Of a stretch of DNA of 37,884 nucleotides, positions 7,316 to 28,282 are shown in pieces. The DNA is from a virus (taxonomy: Duplodnaviria > Heunggongvirae > Uroviricota > Caudoviricetes). Positions within the stretch are counted from its first letter, which is position 1, and each line of letters opens with the position of its first letter. The notes under the pieces were generated by a model that worked only from the letters and a program-made list of their open reading frames with translations, was not told where the DNA came from and did not search any database. Both the position numbers and the translations under genes were made by a program. The stretch is taken from positions 1 to 37,884 of the IMG/VR virus record IMGVR_UViG_2537562092_000002; one strand, written 5' to 3'.

Positions 7316-8362
7316 TTATGCTAGAGTTGAATATTCTCCATTTCCTCGGTCGGTGAGTGTTAATTCGCGGCCATTTTCTGTAAATGTAATGGCATCCAGC
7401 AGGCTTTTTCCTGTTACAGCTATACCATATCCAAGGTTATCAATCTTTGAACTGTCCTCAGATGATATTGGTATTTGTACAAGCATACCAACAACAAGGC
7501 CGTATTTGTTAATTATAGGGCCACCGCTATTCCCCCCCTTAACCCTAGCATTGAATAATAAAAAGTCTTGTGAATCTAAGTAAGAGTGACCAGAACCAAC
7601 AATTCGCCCCTTTGACAGTCGGACAAACGAATTTATATGCGAAACGTCATATAACTTTAATGCATCAAATCCTGGAATGGGTGGAAATCCTATTGATAAA
7701 ATTTCATCCAGTACCGAGGCTTTGGTTGAGACCTTAAGTGGTTGAATATTATCTTCATTCGGAATGGTTGTGAAAACTAAAGCGATATCAATACGTTCAT
7801 CGTTAGATACAAAGATTTTATGTATTGGTAAAGCCTCACCACCAGCTCTAAGTATCCTGATACTCTTCATGTCTTCAATAACATGTCTGGCTGTAAATAT
7901 CGTGTGGTTATTCCCAACAATAAAACTAGTACCAAGATCATGTGAACCATCACTTTTTTCAACAACAACAGGTAAAACGGAAGGACTAAGGCGGTCTATG
8001 ATTGACTCAAATCCATCAGCTATAAAATCATACTTTCCATATTTCGCATCTGATTCATTGAAATTCGGTGCGAAATAGCAACGGTCAAAAAGAGTATGTC
8101 CTGAAGACAATTCCATTAAAATACCTTCAGTTGCTAGCTTTTCACAATTGCGTATTAACTTCATCATATCGAGAGTATTTTCCCACTCAGGTTTGAGACG
8201 GGTCAGGCTCTCAATTGTTTTTCTCTCTTTTACGTTATCGTTTTCCGGTTTGTCATAAAAATATTTCACTATTTCTGTTGGTGTTACATATGTTTTTTTT
8301 ATAGTCATTTTTGTACCCGCGATGACGTTATTCCATATATTTTTCTTTGTAGAAAATATCAC
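7316..8362 (-). CDS. Cytoplasmic trypsin-like (S1/chymotrypsin-fold) serine protease domain protein with ~130-aa N-terminal domain of unknown function
   Basis: His/Asp/Ser triad motifs in canonical order: TARHVIED, DIALVF, GGNSGGPI (GDSGGP-like). No signal peptide. Lies in AT-rich cargo between attL and the invertase. Confidence 0.55.
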   Translation of the reverse strand: MIFSTKKNIWNNVIAGTKMTIKKTYVTPTEIVKYFYDKPENDNVKERKTIESLTRLKPEWENTLDMMKLIRNCEKLATEGILMELSSGHTLFDRCYFAPNFNESDAKYGKYDFIADGFESIIDRLSPSVLPVVVEKSDGSHDLGTSFIVGNNHTIFTARHVIEDMKSIRILRAGGEALPIHKIFVSNDERIDIALVFTTIPNEDNIQPLKVSTKASVLDEILSIGFPPIPGFDALKLYDVSHINSFVRLSKGRIVGSGHSYLDSQDFLLFNARVKGGNSGGPIINKYGLVVGMLVQIPISSEDSSKIDNLGYGIAVTGKSLLDAITFTENGRELTLTDRGNGEYSTLA

Positions 8363-23474: not shown

Positions 23475-24755
23475 TTAATCTCCGAAAAAGATGACTGGTG
23501 CTTCCACCAGCGATTTAATACCGTACTCGCGCACAACCTTCCGGCGCAGGCGCACCGTCATATCGTAGCGGCGGACCCATTGCTGATTAATAAATTCAGG
23601 GAAGGGGGTCAGACCTGTGTAATCGCCAAGAGACAGCCCCAGCGCATTCAGTGCTGCATTGTTCTGCGGTACAGATATACCGTCACGAAACCGGGACGCA
23701 TACACCATCCCCGCCGGACCATAAAACGAAGCCATACACTCAATCGTTTCATGCCGCCAGAGCTTAGAGCCATCATCGGTCTGTCTGGTGAATGCCGGAC
23801 TGTCATCACCTGACCATCCGATACCCAGTTTGATATGCGCATCAACGGCAGCCTGTACCCATTCGGATGGAATCAGGACGCCTTCCGCTGATGCGCTGTA
23901 GTTCAGATCAAGTTCCTGTGCCACCACCACCGGATTATCGATTTTCTCGCATTCCCTGCGATACCACTCTTCATCCTTGCGAGGATCATCCCGCCAGTGG
24001 AATGTGAATACCGGTATCTTCCCGCCATGACGCTTCTGAGCGAACGGGTTAGCCATGCCGTTAACTGAACTCAGGTCGATACGGCAACGCGTCGTTTGTG
24101 ACAACGCCGCATCAATCAGCAGAGGACGCTGAAGGAATGCAGCCTCATCAACCAGATAAAGCGTGGTACGGTCACCACGACCAATATTATCGCCAGCCTC
24201 GCCTTTGATAACGGCACCAGTTTCAGGAAACTCAACACGCATATATGGCGCGTGCTTCTTCTCACTCCACGAACCGCGAAACTCTACAGGTAGCGTTTCC
24301 ACGAACTTGCGCGCCTTCCAGAACAATGCTTTCGGGTCACCAGTGCTGTCGACGTATTCCTCTTTACGGGAGCCAAAACCGATAACCATTTCTTTGTTGA
24401 AGAGACAAAGCGAGCATGCCAGTCCGATCGCGGTCCAACTGAGCCCCATTTCACGGGATTTTTCGGTAATACCATTCTCCCGATTGCTCCAGCGTTCCAT
24501 AATCCAGTGGATCCACTCCTCCTGCTTAGGGAAGAGTAAAAACGGAATGGTCACCGGCAGGCCATAATCAATATTACGCGGGTCCGTTGTCATGCCCCAG
24601 TCGATGATGAACTGAGCCGGATTGGTTCGGTAAAACTGTTTTAGTGCAGGCAATATTTCAGGATTCTGGCGAATGCGCTGTAGGCGTTCCATCCGCCATT
24701 CAAAAACCATCTGGTAATCAGGATGTTTAAAATCGAAGGGGAATGGTAACGGCAT
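23475..24755 (-). CDS. Terminase large subunit (TerL), possibly C-terminally truncated or fused
   Basis: Deviant Walker A-like [11 protein letters not shown] and Walker B-like [10 protein letters not shown]; follows terS. Only ~220 aa remain after Walker B, and the next gene is the tail sheath rather than a portal. Confidence 0.6.
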
Positions 24756-24757
24756 AC

Positions 24758-25309
24758 TTAGCCCATCATTTTTCTATACGCTTCTGCAACCTGCTCCGGC
24801 GTTAAGTTGGTAATTTCTGTTCTGACTGGTCCTCCGTCAGCACCAGTCACTTCATTTTTGACATTGTCTTTAAACGCCTGAACAGAAACATGACGCCCGA
24901 GCAACTCAAGGTTTTTAACCTTATCAGGCCATTTGATTTTCTTCAGAAGTGCGGCGCTATCTGCGGATGCCATCTCCACGACATCCATTCCTGATAACGT
25001 TGTGCGCCATACCTTAGGCCAGTCTTTAATGGGTTTTAGCTCACCGTTTTGCAGGAGAATGTCAAGCACATCCATCTGGTCGATTTCAATAAGGCGATTA
25101 AGTACATATTCTGCATTAATACCAACAAGATCATTGCGTTGCGCTTTCAGTTCGGCGATTCTTAACTTGATGTCAGGTTTTGACAGGTTTTCGGATGCGG
25201 TACGGTTGGCTGTTTTTGCGCTGTACCCCGCCCGAATAGCCGCTTGCGTGGCGTTTAAATCGATGAGGTACTCGCGACAGAACATCTCTTGCTTGTCTGT
25301 GAGTGCCAT
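24758..25309 (-). CDS. Terminase small subunit (TerS)
   Basis: N-terminal [34 protein letters not shown] is typical of phage small terminase HTH regions; directly upstream of terL. Confidence 0.65.
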
Positions 25310-25761
25310 TTTTTCTCAAAGGTGAATTTATGAGCTCATTAACGTTTATCGGATTGTCACAGTTACTTTCTAGGAAAGGTGAGTTATTACAGCAAAATAC
25401 GAATGATTTATTAGAACGTGTTAACACCGCATGGAATAACAAACGAGACCTTAATAAGCAAATTTCCATAGAGCTAAATGATGGAGAGCTTGAGGTTTCA
25501 ATTCCACAGCTACGCTTTAAGTGTTTTACAGAAAGTAAGCTTTCACTTCACGAAGGCTCATTAATTGGGGTTATTACTTTTTACACATCGCGAGATGGAA
25601 AAAAACAGGAGTTTCATAAAATTTTTCTTGATTGGAACAATTGCATGCATTTTGGGGCGCTTGACTCAACAGCTCCAATAGACATCGACTATACCGAAGA
25701 TGTTGAGTATCTCTTTATGAACGCTCTAATCGATTCTGCTTATCGAAATAATTTAATCTAA
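25303..25761 (+). CDS. Hypothetical moron protein (likely start MSSLTFIG near 25330), opposite strand to late genes
   Basis: AT-rich ORF between the lysis cassette and terS, at the position and orientation of lambda bor; no lipoprotein signal; no recognised motif. Confidence 0.45.
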   Translation: MPFFLKGEFMSSLTFIGLSQLLSRKGELLQQNTNDLLERVNTAWNNKRDLNKQISIELNDGELEVSIPQLRFKCFTESKLSLHEGSLIGVITFYTSRDGKKQEFHKIFLDWNNCMHFGALDSTAPIDIDYTEDVEYLFMNALIDSAYRNNLI

Positions 25762-26203
25762 TTGATGTTGGTGGTGAACTTTTGCCACCCAGTTAATCAC
25801 TCTTAGCAGGATATAAGCCATTGTCGAGACCACTCATTGAATGGTCTCTGCAATAACCGATGTCTTTCCATCAGTCCGCCACCACAAAGAATCTTTTTTG
25901 CCATAAGGCTGGATGTTCATCTTTCAGTGGCTGCCAGTGTTATTTCCCCACTTACTGGCTTGGGTTGTTTCGCTGTACTGCCGTAACTGGTTGCCCAGAA
26001 TAAATTCCGGTTTCATTATCAAGCCCACCCGTAGATAGGCTTTGTAATGAACTGGCTCTTATCTCAACGCAGCCCCTTACCGCGCGCCAGATGCTCAACT
26101 TCAAGCATCAGCAATGAGATGTTTAATCTGGATTCACTCCAGAAGTGATCACCACCCTGTCTACAGAGCCAGATGTGAAGGATGATGAGTAAAATTATCG
26201 CTA

Positions 26204-26674
26204 TCATCGAAGGCATTGCGTCCTGATGTATTCCTGCAAGTAGTTAACCTGCGCGGTTATCCTGTCGATTCCACTTCGGAGACGGTAATAATTGAGTTCA
26301 GCATCTGCTGTAAGTCTTGGGCTTTCTCCATCGCCCATGCTGCTGGCTCCGGTCGTTGACTTTGCACAGGTGGCGGCGACTTGCAGGCGCTTACGCCCAG
26401 CAGAAACATCAGCACGGAGACTTTCGATAGTCGCGTTAGCATCAGCAAGCTCCTTTGTGTATCTTGCGTCGAGTTCTGCTACATCACGTTGACGCTTCCG
26501 CATGTCAGCGATGGTGGCGTTCGCCTTCTCCAGTTCACTGGCCTTGTTATCGCGCTGCTCTTTGTAGGCGATTGCGTTATCACGGTAATGATTAACAGCC
26601 AATGACAGGCAGACGATGATGCAGATAACCAGAGCGGAGATAATCGCGGTTACTCTACTCATTGTTGCCCCCAC
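26204..26674 (-). CDS. Rz: Spanin inner-membrane subunit Rz (i-spanin)
   Basis: [38 protein letters not shown]... closely resembles lambda Rz; follows the endolysin. Confidence 0.85.
26257..26448 (-). CDS. Rz1: Spanin outer-membrane lipoprotein Rz1 (o-spanin), embedded in Rz in another frame
   Basis: [29 protein letters not shown]... has a lipobox (LGVSAC) and Pro-rich segment, wholly inside Rz. Confidence 0.7.
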
Positions 26675-27156
26675 AAACAGACTTCACGCTCAATCTCACG
26701 GCGAGTCATCAGCCCTTTCCATTGCTTACCGCCAGCGTATGTCCAGCGCCGTAGCTGATCACATGCGCCTTTGATATCGCCCTGGTTTATTTTGCGAAGA
26801 AGCGTCGATGTTCTGAAATTTCCAGCACCAACGTTGTAAACGAACGAGTAAAGAGCGCCGCGCGTTGTTTCCGGTATATCGACTTTGATGTACGGGTTAA
26901 TTTGTCTGGCGACAGTGGCAAGGTCTTTATTCAGGAGGGCTTTGCATTCTGCTTCGGTATACGTTTTACCGAGCATAATGTCTTTTCCGGTATGCCCGTA
27001 ACATACAGTCCATACACCAACGATATCTTTATATGGTATGTAGCTGACGCCTTCCAGACCATCGTTACCACTTGGGCCAGTGATTAACACAGATGCTATA
27101 GCAATAGCCCCGCCACCAATAGCCGCAGCAACGGCTTTTCGTAATGATGGAGGCAT
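26659..27156 (-). CDS. R: SAR endolysin (lysozyme, phage 21 R-type)
   Basis: N-terminal signal-anchor-release segment [20 protein letters not shown] followed by a lysozyme domain; matches phage 21 R as recalled. Confidence 0.85.
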
Positions 27157-27371
27157 TATTCACCTCTCGCAGCCTTTCTTCTGTCTTCTCTGATTTTGAA
27201 GTACAGATTTGTCAGATAGGTGAGAAAGCCCAACACAAGGCTTCCAAGCACCCCAATCGCAGCCCACTGTGATGGACTGACCTGATCCAACCACTGCAAA
27301 AACCAGTATCCCGCACTACCAGCGGATGTTCCGTAGGCAATGCCAGTTGAGATTTTGTCCATTGATTTCAT
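27156..27371 (-). CDS. S: Pinholin (phage 21 S-type), dual-start holin/antiholin
   Basis: [71 protein letters not shown] matches S21 (71/68-aa forms from M1/M4). Confidence 0.85.
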
Positions 27372-27489
27372 AGCAACGCCTCCGCCAGTAACGGATTGCG
27401 TAGTTCTTATATTGGGAAGGGAGAAAAAGAAGACCGCAGCATAACTATCACTGATGAATTCAGGACATCCAGTGGCTACGGCTCAGTTA

Positions 27490-27565
27490 TGGTGCTGGTT
27501 AACGGACTTGAACCGCTACCCATTCGCTTACAAGGCGACCGCTCTACCATTGGAGCTAAACCAGC
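27490..27565 (-). tRNA. Phage-encoded tRNA, anticodon UGU (Thr) by manual folding
   Basis: Reverse complement GCTGGTTTAGCTCCAATGGTAGAGCGGTCGCCTTGTAAGCGAATGGGTAGCGGTTCAAGTCCGTTAACCAGCACCA folds as a cloverleaf (7-bp acceptor, GGTTCAAGTCC T-arm, loop CUUGUAA). Confidence 0.6.
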
Positions 27566-27570
27566 ATATT

Positions 27571-27645
27571 TGGCGGGACAGCGTGGACTCGAACCACGAT
27601 AAGAAGGTTAACAGCCTTCCGTAATGACCTTTATACGACTGACCC
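27571..27645 (-). tRNA. Phage-encoded tRNA, anticodon GUU (Asn) by manual folding; slightly degenerate D-arm
   Basis: Reverse complement GGGTCAGTCGTATAAAGGTCATTACGGAAGGCTGTTAACCTTCTTATCGTGGTTCGAGTCCACGCTGTCCCGCCA: perfect anticodon and T stems, loop CUGUUAA, one acceptor mismatch. Confidence 0.5.
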
Positions 27646-27649
27646 AAAT

Positions 27650-27691
27650 AAAAAAAGCCACCGTTGCAACTTAAGAGTCACTAACGGCAGC
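27650..27691 (-). terminator. tR-prime-like terminator downstream of Q (late-promoter leader region)
   Basis: Minus strand gctgccgtt(17-nt loop)aacggtggc followed by T7; located between Q and the tRNA/lysis genes as in lambdoid PR-prime/qut/tR-prime units. Confidence 0.45.
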
Positions 27692-27736
27692 TTATGCGAA
27701 TAGTGTTGCTCATTTGCTCAATGATGTCAACACGTT

Positions 27737-28282
27737 CTATGCTACATGTTTAATTTTCTCTACACGTTTCCGGTTTTTAAACGCACTATCCAGAACCGGG
27801 TAAATCATAAACAACGAGGCATTGAGGATTTCGTCAACTTCCCGTCGACAGGTTGCGAGCGATGGTTTTTGAATGCGCCCGCCGCCCCGGCATAACATCT
27901 TGCGAGGTCTTGCGACGCGATGATAGTAAGATGCAATGGCGTGCTTGGAAGAGCCGTGGGCGTAGTAGCTGAGGAGGATGCCAAAGGCTTTCTTGTCAAT
28001 GTACATGACGGAATCGACGACCTGAGAAATCAACATTCCATCATCATCATTACACATTGGCCTTGTCATAACTCTTCCCGGCTCTACGCTCTCCATGAAC
28101 TTAGCTATTACGCTGCTCATGCGCTTTTCCAGACGACCTGAATAAACCCATGCGCCCCACAGTTCAAGCCAGCCATTCAGCCACTCGTGCTGTTCTTTGG
28201 TGAGGTTTAGTTCTCTTATGCCCATGCGCCTTCTCCCTTGTGATCTGGAATGGTTTTTACTGAGAACGTCATGCGGCCTCAC
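27737..28282 (-). CDS. Q: Late-gene antiterminator Q (phage 21/82-type); start may be MGIRELNL at ~28225
   Basis: ...[27 protein letters not shown]... and Cys-rich C-terminal region resemble lambdoid Q proteins; sits upstream of the late terminator and lysis genes. Confidence 0.75.

What the first reader, a model, noticed from the sequence alone, without database searches (positions are those of the whole stretch)
25303..25761. Opposite-strand moron between the lysis cassette and terS (bor-equivalent position)
An AT-rich ORF (probably starting MSSLTFIG) is transcribed against the late operon, exactly where lambda carries bor. It lacks a lipoprotein signal and has no motif I recognise. It is followed by ~440 bp of non-coding DNA containing a 7-bp-stem hairpin (gagacca...tggtctc near 25836..25857).
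Basis: partly seen in the sequence, partly recalled or inferred. Interest (0 to 1): 0.45.

Follow-up and report, generated by a model that had tools for sequence, protein, structure and literature searches.

The report
Backwards cargo gene abutting prophage terS
A real, conserved but uncharacterised 143-residue protein gene sits backwards inside a prophage's late operon, in a swappable cargo slot directly against the small-terminase gene. It is most likely a lysogen-expressed accessory ("moron") gene like lambda bor, P22 pid or phi80 tai, and is an untested candidate for phage exclusion.

Summary
The ORF is real. It starts at ATG 25330 (not GTG 25303), ends at 25761 on the + strand, and encodes 143 aa behind an AAGGTG Shine-Dalgarno. 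Close homologs are all exactly 143 aa and dN/dS is 0.12. It belongs to a small family with no match in Pfam, PHROG, NCBIfam or PADLOC, found in Enterobacterales prophages and in Cronobacter phage ES2.

In every lineage examined it lies head-to-head with a Terminase_2 terS, or a terS 5' remnant, and opposite to the Q-driven late operon. Only 7 of about 227 complete E. coli genomes with this terS carry it. The others hold unrelated opposite-strand genes at the same spot, 19-27 nt from the terS ATG. So it occupies a cargo slot, which supports the "moron, bor-equivalent" reading.

The promoter was not identified and expression is untested. The closest functional precedent is phi80 taiEcA (same place, same orientation, a lysogen-expressed defence gene), but it is not homologous.

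Two details of the finding are wrong. The "440 bp non-coding" stretch contains a 50-aa conserved gene, and the hairpin is at 25826-25848 in a P22-like remnant outside the gene's module.

The parts
25330..25761 (+). ORF143: 143-aa CDS plus stop. A soluble acidic protein (pI 5.0, GRAVY -0.31) of an uncharacterised family.
   Evidence: all close homologs 143 aa; WP_000097127.1; dN/dS 0.12; AF2 pLDDT 87.8.
25319..25324 (+). Shine-Dalgarno AAGGTG, 5 nt before the ATG.
   Evidence: Sequence. Every alternative cargo gene in this slot has its own strong SD.
25310..25329 (.). 20-nt head-to-head gap between the terS ATG and the ORF143 ATG. It is also the mosaic junction: homology among prophages that share this terS ends at 25309-25317.
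   Evidence: The same 20-nt gap occurs in 8 of 8 IMG/VR loci and in L002, L005, L006 and ES2.
25770..25789 (+). 3' hairpin of the ORF143 module (GGTGGTGA-ACTT-TTGCCACC). It has no U-run and may act as a stabiliser or weak terminator.
   Evidence: -10 kcal/mol centroid, z -1.2. The homologous hairpin is present in the Citrobacter locus. The L002 homolog has a true intrinsic terminator (z -5.0). Module homology ends near 25799.
24758..25309 (-). terS, small terminase of the Terminase_2 type. Its first codons must contain, or lie downstream of, the ORF143 promoter.
   Evidence: (PF03592, E 7e-40), (5' end nearly invariant at the nucleotide level).
25808..26049 (.). Remnant of the P22-like late region, the DNA that flanks the Rha/KilA-N cargo in Sf101, E212, CUS-3 and HK620. 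No gene was assigned here.
   Evidence: No PHROG hit for its small ORFs. No Rfam hit.
25826..25848 (-). It is more stable in the late-transcript orientation.
26064..26216 (-). 50-aa conserved late-operon gene (homolog of Sf6 gene 65) that overlaps the end of Rz.
   Evidence: (phrog_11822, E 8.6e-38).
26204..26674 (-). Rz-like i-spanin, the last gene of the lysis cassette.
   Evidence: PF03245, E 1e-40; phrog_13.
23475..24755 (-). A truncated terL fused in frame to the C-terminal part of a neck-terminator protein (context: this prophage is defective).

Best explanation
ORF143 is an accessory ('moron') gene nested backwards in the Q-dependent late operon. It occupies a swappable cargo slot that abuts the start codon of a Terminase_2 terS.

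Shown:
- It is a real protein-coding gene under purifying selection.
- It has its own ribosome-binding site and a 3' hairpin.
- It is sporadic among prophages that share the same terS.
- Other prophages carry unrelated opposite-strand genes at the same position.

Inferred:
- The gap to terS is only 20 nt and contains the SD, so its transcript must start inside the terS coding sequence, from a weak or conditional promoter.
- When the prophage is silent, this transcript is made and the protein accumulates.
- When Q turns on late transcription, RNA polymerases run antisense through the gene, which lowers its expression. This is the 'noncontiguous operon' logic demonstrated for phi80 taiEcA and S. 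aureus tha/ith.
- The protein is a soluble, mildly acidic two-layer alpha/beta sandwich with no conserved polar residue. It therefore most likely acts by binding another protein rather than by catalysis.
- The function I think most likely is protection of the lysogen against other phages (exclusion or immunity). Modulation of a host regulator, as with Pid, is the second choice.
For: Gene reality:
- Close homologs are all exactly 143 aa.
- dN/dS is 0.12.
- The chance of such an ORF at this composition is about 2e-5.

Family:
- Roughly 15 clusters of 143-148 aa among 1.84 billion representative proteins.
- It includes Cronobacter phage ES2 AEM24710.1 (hhalign probability 99.85%).

Conserved context:
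- It is head-to-head with a Terminase_2 terS, and opposite to the lysis and late genes, in E. coli, Citrobacter, Kosakonia, C. koseri, Pantoea, Cronobacter and IMG/VR contigs.
- This holds even at 22% identity and across non-homologous TerL types.

Accessory nature:
- 7 of 5426 complete E. coli genomes carry it, against about 227 with this terS.
- Homology among prophages sharing this terS stops at the terS ATG.
- At least six unrelated opposite-strand cargo types sit 19-27 nt from the terS ATG.

Composition: 36-40% GC against 46-54% for terS in all 8 lineages.

No terminator-like site lies on the late strand between Rz and terS, so late transcripts should cross the gene.

Protein:
- AF2 pLDDT 87.8, pTM 0.81.
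- No invariant polar residue across 20 diverse members.
- No TM segment or signal peptide.

Precedents:
- phi80 taiEcA sits between rha and cos, opposite to the Q operon. It is expressed in lysogens and reduced by Q (PMC11364771; phi80 map).
- The antisense switch logic is described in PMC11087260.
- P22 pid lies opposite to the late promoter, with a weak promoter and a stabilising 3' loop (PMC8835761).
Against: - No sigma-70 promoter above chance in the 300 nt upstream. The consensus scan found 0 sites. The best score in my position-weight-matrix (PWM) scan was 9.0, against a shuffle median of 8.2.
- The 3' hairpin in the window is weak and lacks a U-run.
- No match to any PADLOC defence model.
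- Not a Tai homolog.
- No expression or phenotype data exist for any family member.
- The strict linkage to terS across deep divergence could instead reflect a role in packaging.
- The fold gives no functional assignment. Foldseek against PDB found nothing better than E 0.28.
Confidence: 0.5

Rival explanations
1. Host-physiology modulator in the manner of P22 Pid. The protein, made in lysogens or carrier cells, binds a host regulator or enzyme and rewires metabolism, with no role in phage exclusion.
For: - Same region and orientation as pid, a weak promoter and a 3' loop (PMC8835761).
- A small soluble protein without catalytic residues.
Against: - No homology to anything in P22-like genomes (tblastn found nothing in 50,697 phage records).
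- No target can be inferred.
- The surface diverges rapidly between lineages (22-27% identity where terS stays at 64-74%). That fits a variable, phage-like target better than a conserved host protein.
Confidence: 0.2
2. A packaging-linked function. The protein acts on TerS or the pac-recognition step, either of its own phage or of competitors and satellites that hijack TerS. That would explain the invariant adjacency to terS.
For: - Every family member is next to a Terminase_2 terS or a terS 5' remnant, whatever the TerL, portal or capsid type.
Against: - Prophages with 98-99.5% identical terS lack the gene and carry unrelated genes there instead.
- Isolated phages with homologous terS have no such gene at all, for example vB_EcoM-683R1.
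- So terS does not need it.
- Orientation against the late operon is the opposite of what a packaging factor would need.
Confidence: 0.1
3. The RNA is what matters. The ORF143 transcript necessarily overlaps the terS translation-initiation region in antisense, and serves to keep terminase silent in lysogens. The protein would be secondary.
For: - The geometry is forced by the 20-nt gap.
- BTP1 STnc6030 is a precedent for a functional prophage antisense RNA (PMC7067206).
Against: - Strong purifying selection on the protein (dN/dS 0.12).
- Length conserved at about 143-148 aa down to 22% identity.
- A confident compact fold.
- Any cargo gene in the slot would give the same antisense overlap, so this cannot explain this family specifically.
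Confidence: 0.08
4. A frataxin/CyaY-like protein that binds IscS or iron and modulates Fe-S cluster or tRNA-thiolation pathways of the host.
For: - The topology is identical: helix, antiparallel sheet, helix.
Against: - Sequence identity 7-15%.
- Foldseek places frataxins at E 0.7-0.9 with TM 0.27-0.37.
- No Pfam Frataxin_Cyay hit in any of 20 members at E up to 1.
- Helix 1 has 4 acidic and 5 basic residues, so it lacks the acidic ridge.
- No conserved polar surface residues.
Confidence: 0.03
5. A transcriptional regulator, as annotated for the ES2 homolog (AEM24710.1).
For: Only the GenBank product name.
Against: - No HTH or other DNA-binding domain in Pfam or NCBIfam.
- An acidic protein (pI 5.0).
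- The fold is not DNA-binding-like.
Confidence: 0.03
6. A spurious ORF, not a gene.
For: No promoter found.
Against: all contradict this.
Confidence: 0.01

Closest known systems
Phage phi80 taiEcA (orf63), the Tai tail-assembly-inhibition immunity gene (PMC11364771)
   Same: - It lies between the lysis/rha genes and the packaging start, and is transcribed opposite to the Q-controlled late operon.
- It is described as a moron locus 'upstream of the packaging module'.
- It is expressed in the lysogen and lowered when Q is expressed.
   Different: - No homology (hhalign probability 0.4%).
- TaiEcA is 204 aa, ORF143 is 143 aa.
- Tai has a late-strand counter-gene (atiEcA) beside it. No ORF143-specific partner was found.
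- phi80 is a cos phage with a lambda-type Nu1, not a Terminase_2 terS.
Lambda bor
   Same: An opposite-strand accessory gene between Rz and the terminase genes, expressed in lysogens (PMC7067206; gene order from general knowledge of lambda).
   Different: - Bor is an outer-membrane lipoprotein. ORF143 has no signal peptide or lipobox.
- No Pfam match of any kind.
- ORF143 is predicted to be cytoplasmic.
P22 pid ORFan locus (PMC8835761, PMC3573128)
   Same: - A late-region gene whose orientation opposes the late promoter.
- A weak promoter and a 3' stem-loop.
- A small soluble ORFan protein that acts on a host regulator's output.
   Different: - No sequence similarity to any P22-like genome.
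- Pid derepresses the dgo operon. No target is known for ORF143.
- pid lies between orf25 and orf80, not against terS.
Cronobacter phage ES2 AEM24710.1 ('transcriptional regulator', JF314845.1)
   Same: - A true family member (hhalign probability 99.85%, E 1e-30).
- 144 aa, with the same 20-nt head-to-head arrangement with terS.
   Different: - Only 19% identical.
- Its product name is unsupported by any domain evidence.
Frataxin/CyaY fold
   Different: - No sequence, profile or motif similarity.
- No acidic ridge.
- A much longer N-terminal helix (35 residues).
- Foldseek finds the match non-significant.
Burkholderia phage Mana 151-aa protein (UniProt A0A873WDE3; by length, CPT_Mana_015)
   Same: - The only significant structural match among viral models (Foldseek E 4e-5, TM 0.78).
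- It is also an unannotated cargo-like gene with its own terminator in a temperate phage, between the P2 S-like and V-like genes.
   Different: - No detectable sequence similarity.
- It is on the same strand as the late genes.
- The phage is P2-like and from Burkholderia.
- Equating the UniProt entry with CPT_Mana_015 rests on length only.

Membership tests
Moron (prophage accessory locus) | Non-universal: present in some and absent from other closely related phages at the same site. | tested here: met
   7 of about 227 complete E. coli genomes with this terS carry it. Homology ends at the terS ATG. Alternative cargo genes sit at the same site.
Moron (prophage accessory locus) | Base composition deviates from the surrounding phage genes. 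| tested here: met
   35.9% GC against 46.4% for terS. The difference is 10-18 points in all 8 lineages.
Moron (prophage accessory locus) | Has its own promoter. | tested here: inconclusive
   No sigma-70 site above chance. The geometry forces the promoter into the terS codons. One weak candidate is TTAAAT 25255-60 / GAACAT 25280-85, which reads TTGAAT/TAACAT in the Kosakonia remnant.
Moron (prophage accessory locus) | Has its own terminator. | tested here: inconclusive
   The window has a weak hairpin without a U-run. The L002 homolog has a canonical terminator.
Moron (prophage accessory locus) | Expressed from the repressed prophage. | not testable with these tools
   No transcriptome data available. 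No paper mentions WP_000097127.
Lambda Bor lipoprotein family | Sequence membership, plus a signal peptide with a lipobox Cys. | tested here: not met
   No Pfam hit above noise. The N-terminus is a predicted amphipathic helix, and the Cys residues are only at 65 and 105.
Tai (tail assembly inhibition) immunity proteins | Homology to TaiEcA or the PICI Tai proteins. | tested here: not met
   hhalign of the family profile against phi80 Orf63 gives probability 0.4%. tblastn against all phage records found no match.
Tai (tail assembly inhibition) immunity proteins | [quoted passage not shown] | tested here: met
   PMC11364771.
Tai (tail assembly inhibition) immunity proteins | Blocks tail assembly of incoming phages. 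| not testable with these tools
   Needs plaque assays and electron microscopy.
Frataxin/CyaY | Match to the Pfam Frataxin_Cyay profile. | tested here: not met
   No hit in any of 20 family members at E up to 1. No PDB sequence hit with the family profile.
Frataxin/CyaY | Acidic ridge on helix 1 and strand 1, and conserved sheet-surface residues. | tested here: not met
   Helix 1 has 4 acidic and 5 basic residues. The family has no conserved polar residue.
Frataxin/CyaY | Alpha-beta sandwich topology: helix, 5-7 antiparallel strands, helix. | tested here: met
Known anti-phage defence systems (PADLOC-DB 2.0) | Match to any defence protein model. | tested here: not met
   0 families at E up to 10 for the window protein. 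0 families at E up to 1 for the ES2 and Kosakonia members.
ORF143 family (unnamed; WP_000097127.1 and AEM24710.1) | About 143-148 aa, N-terminal long helix, six strands, C-terminal helix ending in L-I(-S-x), divergent from a Terminase_2 terS. | tested here: met

The most novel reading that the evidence does not exclude
The 19-27 nt position against the ATG of this Terminase_2 terS may be a general, previously undescribed immunity or cargo hotspot of enterobacterial pac-type lambdoid prophages. On this reading, a weak promoter buried in the near-invariant first codons of terS drives whatever gene is dropped there, and Q-dependent late transcription shuts it off. ORF143 would then be the founding member of a new single-gene, non-enzymatic anti-phage (or anti-satellite) family with a frataxin-like sandwich fold.
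Probability: 0.2. Interest if true: 0.6.

Novelty: new member of a known kind. Interest (0 to 1): 0.35.

Why it matters
Opposite-strand genes nested in the late operon just upstream of the packaging genes have repeatedly turned out to be lysogen-expressed functions that matter: bor, pid and tai. This locus adds a protein family with no annotation in any library. It also adds a sharply defined slot against terS that holds at least seven unrelated small genes in E. coli alone, one of them in E. coli B. If the slot behaves like the phi80 tai locus, it offers a short list of testable candidates for phage defence or host modulation, and a simple genomic rule for finding more. If ORF143 does nothing measurable, it is one more prophage hypothetical protein.

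Tried and rejected
- **Family libraries.** Pfam, PHROGs, NCBIfam and PADLOC scans of ORF143 and of 20 family members gave nothing above noise.
- **tblastn against 50,697 phage records.** The window protein found no match. The ES2 homolog was found only through the terS neighbourhood.
- **PDB sequence search with the family profile.** Nothing.
- **Foldseek against PDB.** Nothing significant. The afdb50 library was unavailable.
- **Frataxin reading.** Rejected as family membership.
- **Tai homology.** Rejected.
- **Genome-contig scan with the family alignment.** The A1 alignment matched 41 pattern stretches but none was confirmed.
- **Promoter search.** The consensus scan and my own PWM scan over eight lineages found no conserved site above the shuffle level.
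- **Nucleotide constraint on terS.** I tested whether the first codons of terS carry extra nucleotide-level constraint linked to cargo. Synonymous identity is only modestly raised (0.62-0.70 against about 0.33-0.57), and Morganella, which has no opposite cargo, is not clearly different. This gives no support.
- **A partner gene.** I looked for an ORF143-specific partner. The 64-aa convergent gene in L002, L025 and L026 is phrog_6581 and also occurs in phages without ORF143. The window lacks it.
- **Upstream extension of terS into the ORF.** Excluded, because an in-frame TGA lies 9 nt upstream of the terS ATG.
- **The antisense 98-aa ORF at 25173-25469.** It is in a different frame from terS and was treated as spurious.
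- **Rfam scan of 24700-27800.** Only the two tRNAs.

Full report
**What is at the coordinates**

The window is a lambdoid prophage whose late operon runs on the - strand.
- The late genes are Q (27737-28282), two tRNAs (27493-27645), holin (27156-27371), lysozyme (26659-27156), Rz (26204-26674), a 50-aa gene (26064-26216), terS (24758-25309) and terL (from 24755 downwards).
- On the + strand, the ORF listing gives an ORF at 25303-25761.
- The real start is the ATG at 25330, five bases after AAGGTG. All 15 close homologs in a 5.8-billion-protein collection are exactly 143 aa and begin MS.LTF. RefSeq annotates the same 432-nt CDS as WP_000097127.1.
- The ORF is AT-rich: 35.9% GC against 46.4% for terS and 46.7% for the window (profile).
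- At that composition, a run of 143 stop-free codons has a probability of about 2e-5.
- Against the Citrobacter homolog, dN/dS is 0.12 at dS 0.61.

**Corrections to the observation**

- The "~440 bp of non-coding DNA" is not all non-coding. Positions 26064-26216 encode a 50-aa protein that matches phrog_11822 end to end (E 8.6e-38). It is Sf6 gene 65 and is annotated in RefSeq.
- The remaining DNA from 25808 to 26049 is 96-98% identical to P22-like phages (Sf101, E212, CUS-3, HK620 and others). In those phages it flanks a Rha or KilA-N gene that this prophage lacks.
- The hairpin is at 25826-25848, not 25836-25857.
- It is more stable in the late-transcript orientation (z -4.1) than on the + strand (z -2.3). 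It has no U-run on either strand.
- It lies outside the ORF's own module. Homology to the Citrobacter loci ends near 25799.
- The ORF's own 3' element is a weaker hairpin at 25770-25789. The more distant L002 homolog has a canonical intrinsic terminator at the same position.

**The protein family**

- ORF143 has no match in Pfam, PHROGs, NCBIfam or PADLOC. Scanning 20 diverse members individually gave no match either.
- An exhaustive HMMER search of 1.84 billion cluster representatives found 21 hits. About 15 are 143-148-aa proteins. The rest are fragments or repeat proteins that match only in short stretches.
- Named sources are E. coli, Citrobacter, Enterobacter, Klebsiella, Kosakonia and Pantoea.
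- tblastn of the window protein against 50,697 phage records found nothing.
- Following terS homologs led to Cronobacter phage ES2. Its 144-aa "transcriptional regulator" AEM24710.1 is a clear member (hhalign probability 99.85%, E 1e-30). It is the only member in that collection.
- Across 20 members the only invariant or near-invariant residues are hydrophobic or Pro (M1, L20, P59, F63, F84, A137, I143).

**Structure**

- With a 19-sequence alignment, AlphaFold2 gives pLDDT 87.8 and pTM 0.81, and all five models agree. A shallower alignment had given 78.5.
- The fold is a 35-residue N-terminal helix, six antiparallel strands and a C-terminal helix.
- Foldseek against the whole PDB finds nothing better than E 0.28.
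- Among viral models, only a 151-aa protein of Burkholderia phage Mana matches (TM 0.78, E 4e-5). By length this is CPT_Mana_015, a cargo-like gene with its own terminator between P2-type tail genes. It has no sequence similarity to the family.
- Features that define frataxin were tested and not met: no profile hit and no acidic ridge.
- I read the protein as a soluble, mildly acidic (pI 5.0), non-enzymatic binding module.

**Genomic context, the most informative result**

- In every lineage examined, the family gene lies on the strand opposite to the lysis and late genes, head-to-head with a Terminase_2 terS.
  - E. coli SCU-301.
  - An unnamed 5.7-Mb genome.
  - Citrobacter, with two different TerL and portal types.
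  - Kosakonia, C. koseri and Pantoea.
  - Eight IMG/VR contigs.
  - Phage ES2.
- The gap is exactly 20 nt in most of them.
- In Kosakonia and C. koseri the functional terS is a different, longer gene. Even so, a remnant of the [14 protein letters not shown] terS 5' end still sits immediately upstream of the family gene.
- TerS stays 64-74% identical between Pantoea and the other lineages, while the ORF143-family proteins fall to 24-27%.

**It is cargo, not core**

- About 227 of 5426 complete E. coli genomes carry this terS 5' half. Only 7 carry ORF143.
- Prophages with 98-99.5% identical terL and terS lose homology exactly at the terS start codon, at window 25309-25317.
- At that point they carry unrelated + strand genes, each 19-27 nt from the terS ATG, each with its own strong SD, and each AT-rich at 36-44% GC (junction sequences):
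  - a 182-aa protein in RM8082, T28R and E. coli B;
  - a 78-aa protein;
  - a 72-aa protein, which is also present but unannotated in phage phiES15;
  - YodC plus DUF6953;
  - a 111-aa protein.
- Some relatives have nothing there (vB_EcoM-683R1) or a same-strand HNH gene.
- The family's low GC is maintained in all eight lineages, 10-18 points below terS.

**How it most likely works**

Shown:
- the gene, its RBS and its 3' hairpin;
- its accessory distribution;
- its antisense nesting in the late operon;
- the absence of a terminator-like site on the late strand between Rz and terS.

Inferred:
- The 20-nt gap holds the SD, so transcription must start within the terS coding sequence.
- No sigma-70 site above chance was found there by a consensus scan or by a PWM scan across eight lineages (best 9.0 against a shuffle median of 8.2).
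- The only lead is TTAAAT (25255-60) / GAACAT (25280-85). In the Kosakonia remnant, which is free of coding constraint, it reads TTGAAT / TAACAT. This is weak.
- A test for extra synonymous constraint in the first terS codons was only suggestive and not clearly linked to cargo.

A weak promoter would match P22 pid. That gene is also opposed to the late promoter, has a weak promoter, and has a 3' loop that stabilises the transcript (PMC8835761).

The best functional precedent is phi80 taiEcA. It lies between rha and cos on the strand opposite to the Q operon. It is expressed in the lysogen, lowered when Q is expressed, and confers immunity by blocking tail assembly. [quoted passage not shown] The reciprocal antisense switch is described as a noncontiguous operon (PMC11087260).

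ORF143 is not a Tai homolog and matches no PADLOC model. The claim is therefore "works like", not "is a member of".

I put 0.5 on the reading [quoted passage not shown]. Smaller weights go to a Pid-like host modulator, a packaging-linked role, an RNA-only role, a frataxin-like role and the ES2 "regulator" label.

**Novelty and score**

This is a new member of a known kind: an opposite-strand moron in the lysis-to-packaging interval. The protein family is unannotated in every library searched, and no paper in the searched library mentions WP_000097127. The sharply bounded slot against terS is a useful observation. However, the class, the place and the regulatory logic are already established by bor, pid and tai, and no function could be assigned. 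Interest 0.35.

Noticed in passing
window 23475-24755 (-), junction near 23820: The 'terL' ORF is an in-frame fusion. About 310 N-terminal TerL residues (97.9% nt identity to the intact SCU-301 prophage down to 23820) are joined to the C-terminal part of a neck-terminator protein (PF23961, E 2e-24). The portal, MuF, scaffold and capsid genes are deleted, so this prophage cannot make heads. No complete E. coli genome in the collection has this junction.
   Followed up: partly
L031 4010-4558 (E. coli RM8082); the same protein WP_000762846.1 in T28R and E. coli B (L034, L035): The commonest alternative cargo sampled in the same slot is a 182-aa protein with no family hit. By eye it has an R / S-T / ExE-like pattern (YRG ... 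CWTTD ... GENEF) reminiscent of ADP-ribosyltransferases. This is unverified: there are no hits in Pfam, NCBIfam or PDB, and the only PADLOC match is a noise-level one (RT_UG26, E 0.024).
   Followed up: partly
L028 2261-2479 (-) (Cronobacter phage phiES15, JQ780327.1): An unannotated 72-aa ORF lies head-to-head with terS (21-nt gap, SD AAGGA). It is homologous to an annotated 72-aa protein in the same slot of E. coli TUM12357.
   Followed up: partly
L014 7967-7985 (C. koseri prophage): A run of about 15 C lies between the terS 5' remnant and the SD of the family gene. It could act as a slipped-strand switch on expression.
   Followed up: no
L014 7908-7966 and L012 about 7930-8000: Remnants of the [14 protein letters not shown] terS 5' end persist upstream of the family gene although the functional terS there is a different gene of 324 or 343 aa. 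The C. koseri remnant is 95% identical to the window over 59 nt, while the adjacent proteins are only 22% identical.
   Followed up: partly
window 25826-25848, - strand: A stable hairpin in the late-transcript orientation (z -4.1), without a U-run, inside a segment shared at 96-98% identity with many P22-like phages. Its role (RNA processing or stability site?) is unknown.
   Followed up: partly
L002 8483-8680, L025 and L026 5483-5677 (- strand): A 64-65-aa late-strand gene (phrog_6581, unknown function) converges on the 3' end of the family gene in three lineages. It also occurs just upstream of the packaging genes in Enterobacter, Erwinia and Cronobacter phages that lack ORF143, so it is not a specific partner.
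   Followed up: yes
L030 2046-2480 (Cronobacter phage ES2, AEM24710.1): The GenBank product name 'transcriptional regulator' for this family member has no support from any domain or fold evidence.
   Followed up: yes
window 27493-27565 and 27574-27645 (-): Two tRNA genes lie between Q and the holin, in the same place as the tRNA-Thr and tRNA-Asn pair of Sf6 and the SCU-301 prophage.
   Followed up: no
L018 9269-9724 (Burkholderia phage Mana, CPT_Mana_015): The only significant structural neighbour of ORF143 among viral models is, by length, this 151-aa hypothetical protein. It is followed by an annotated terminator and sits between the S-like and V-like tail genes of a P2-like phage, which is a cargo-like position.
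   Followed up: partly
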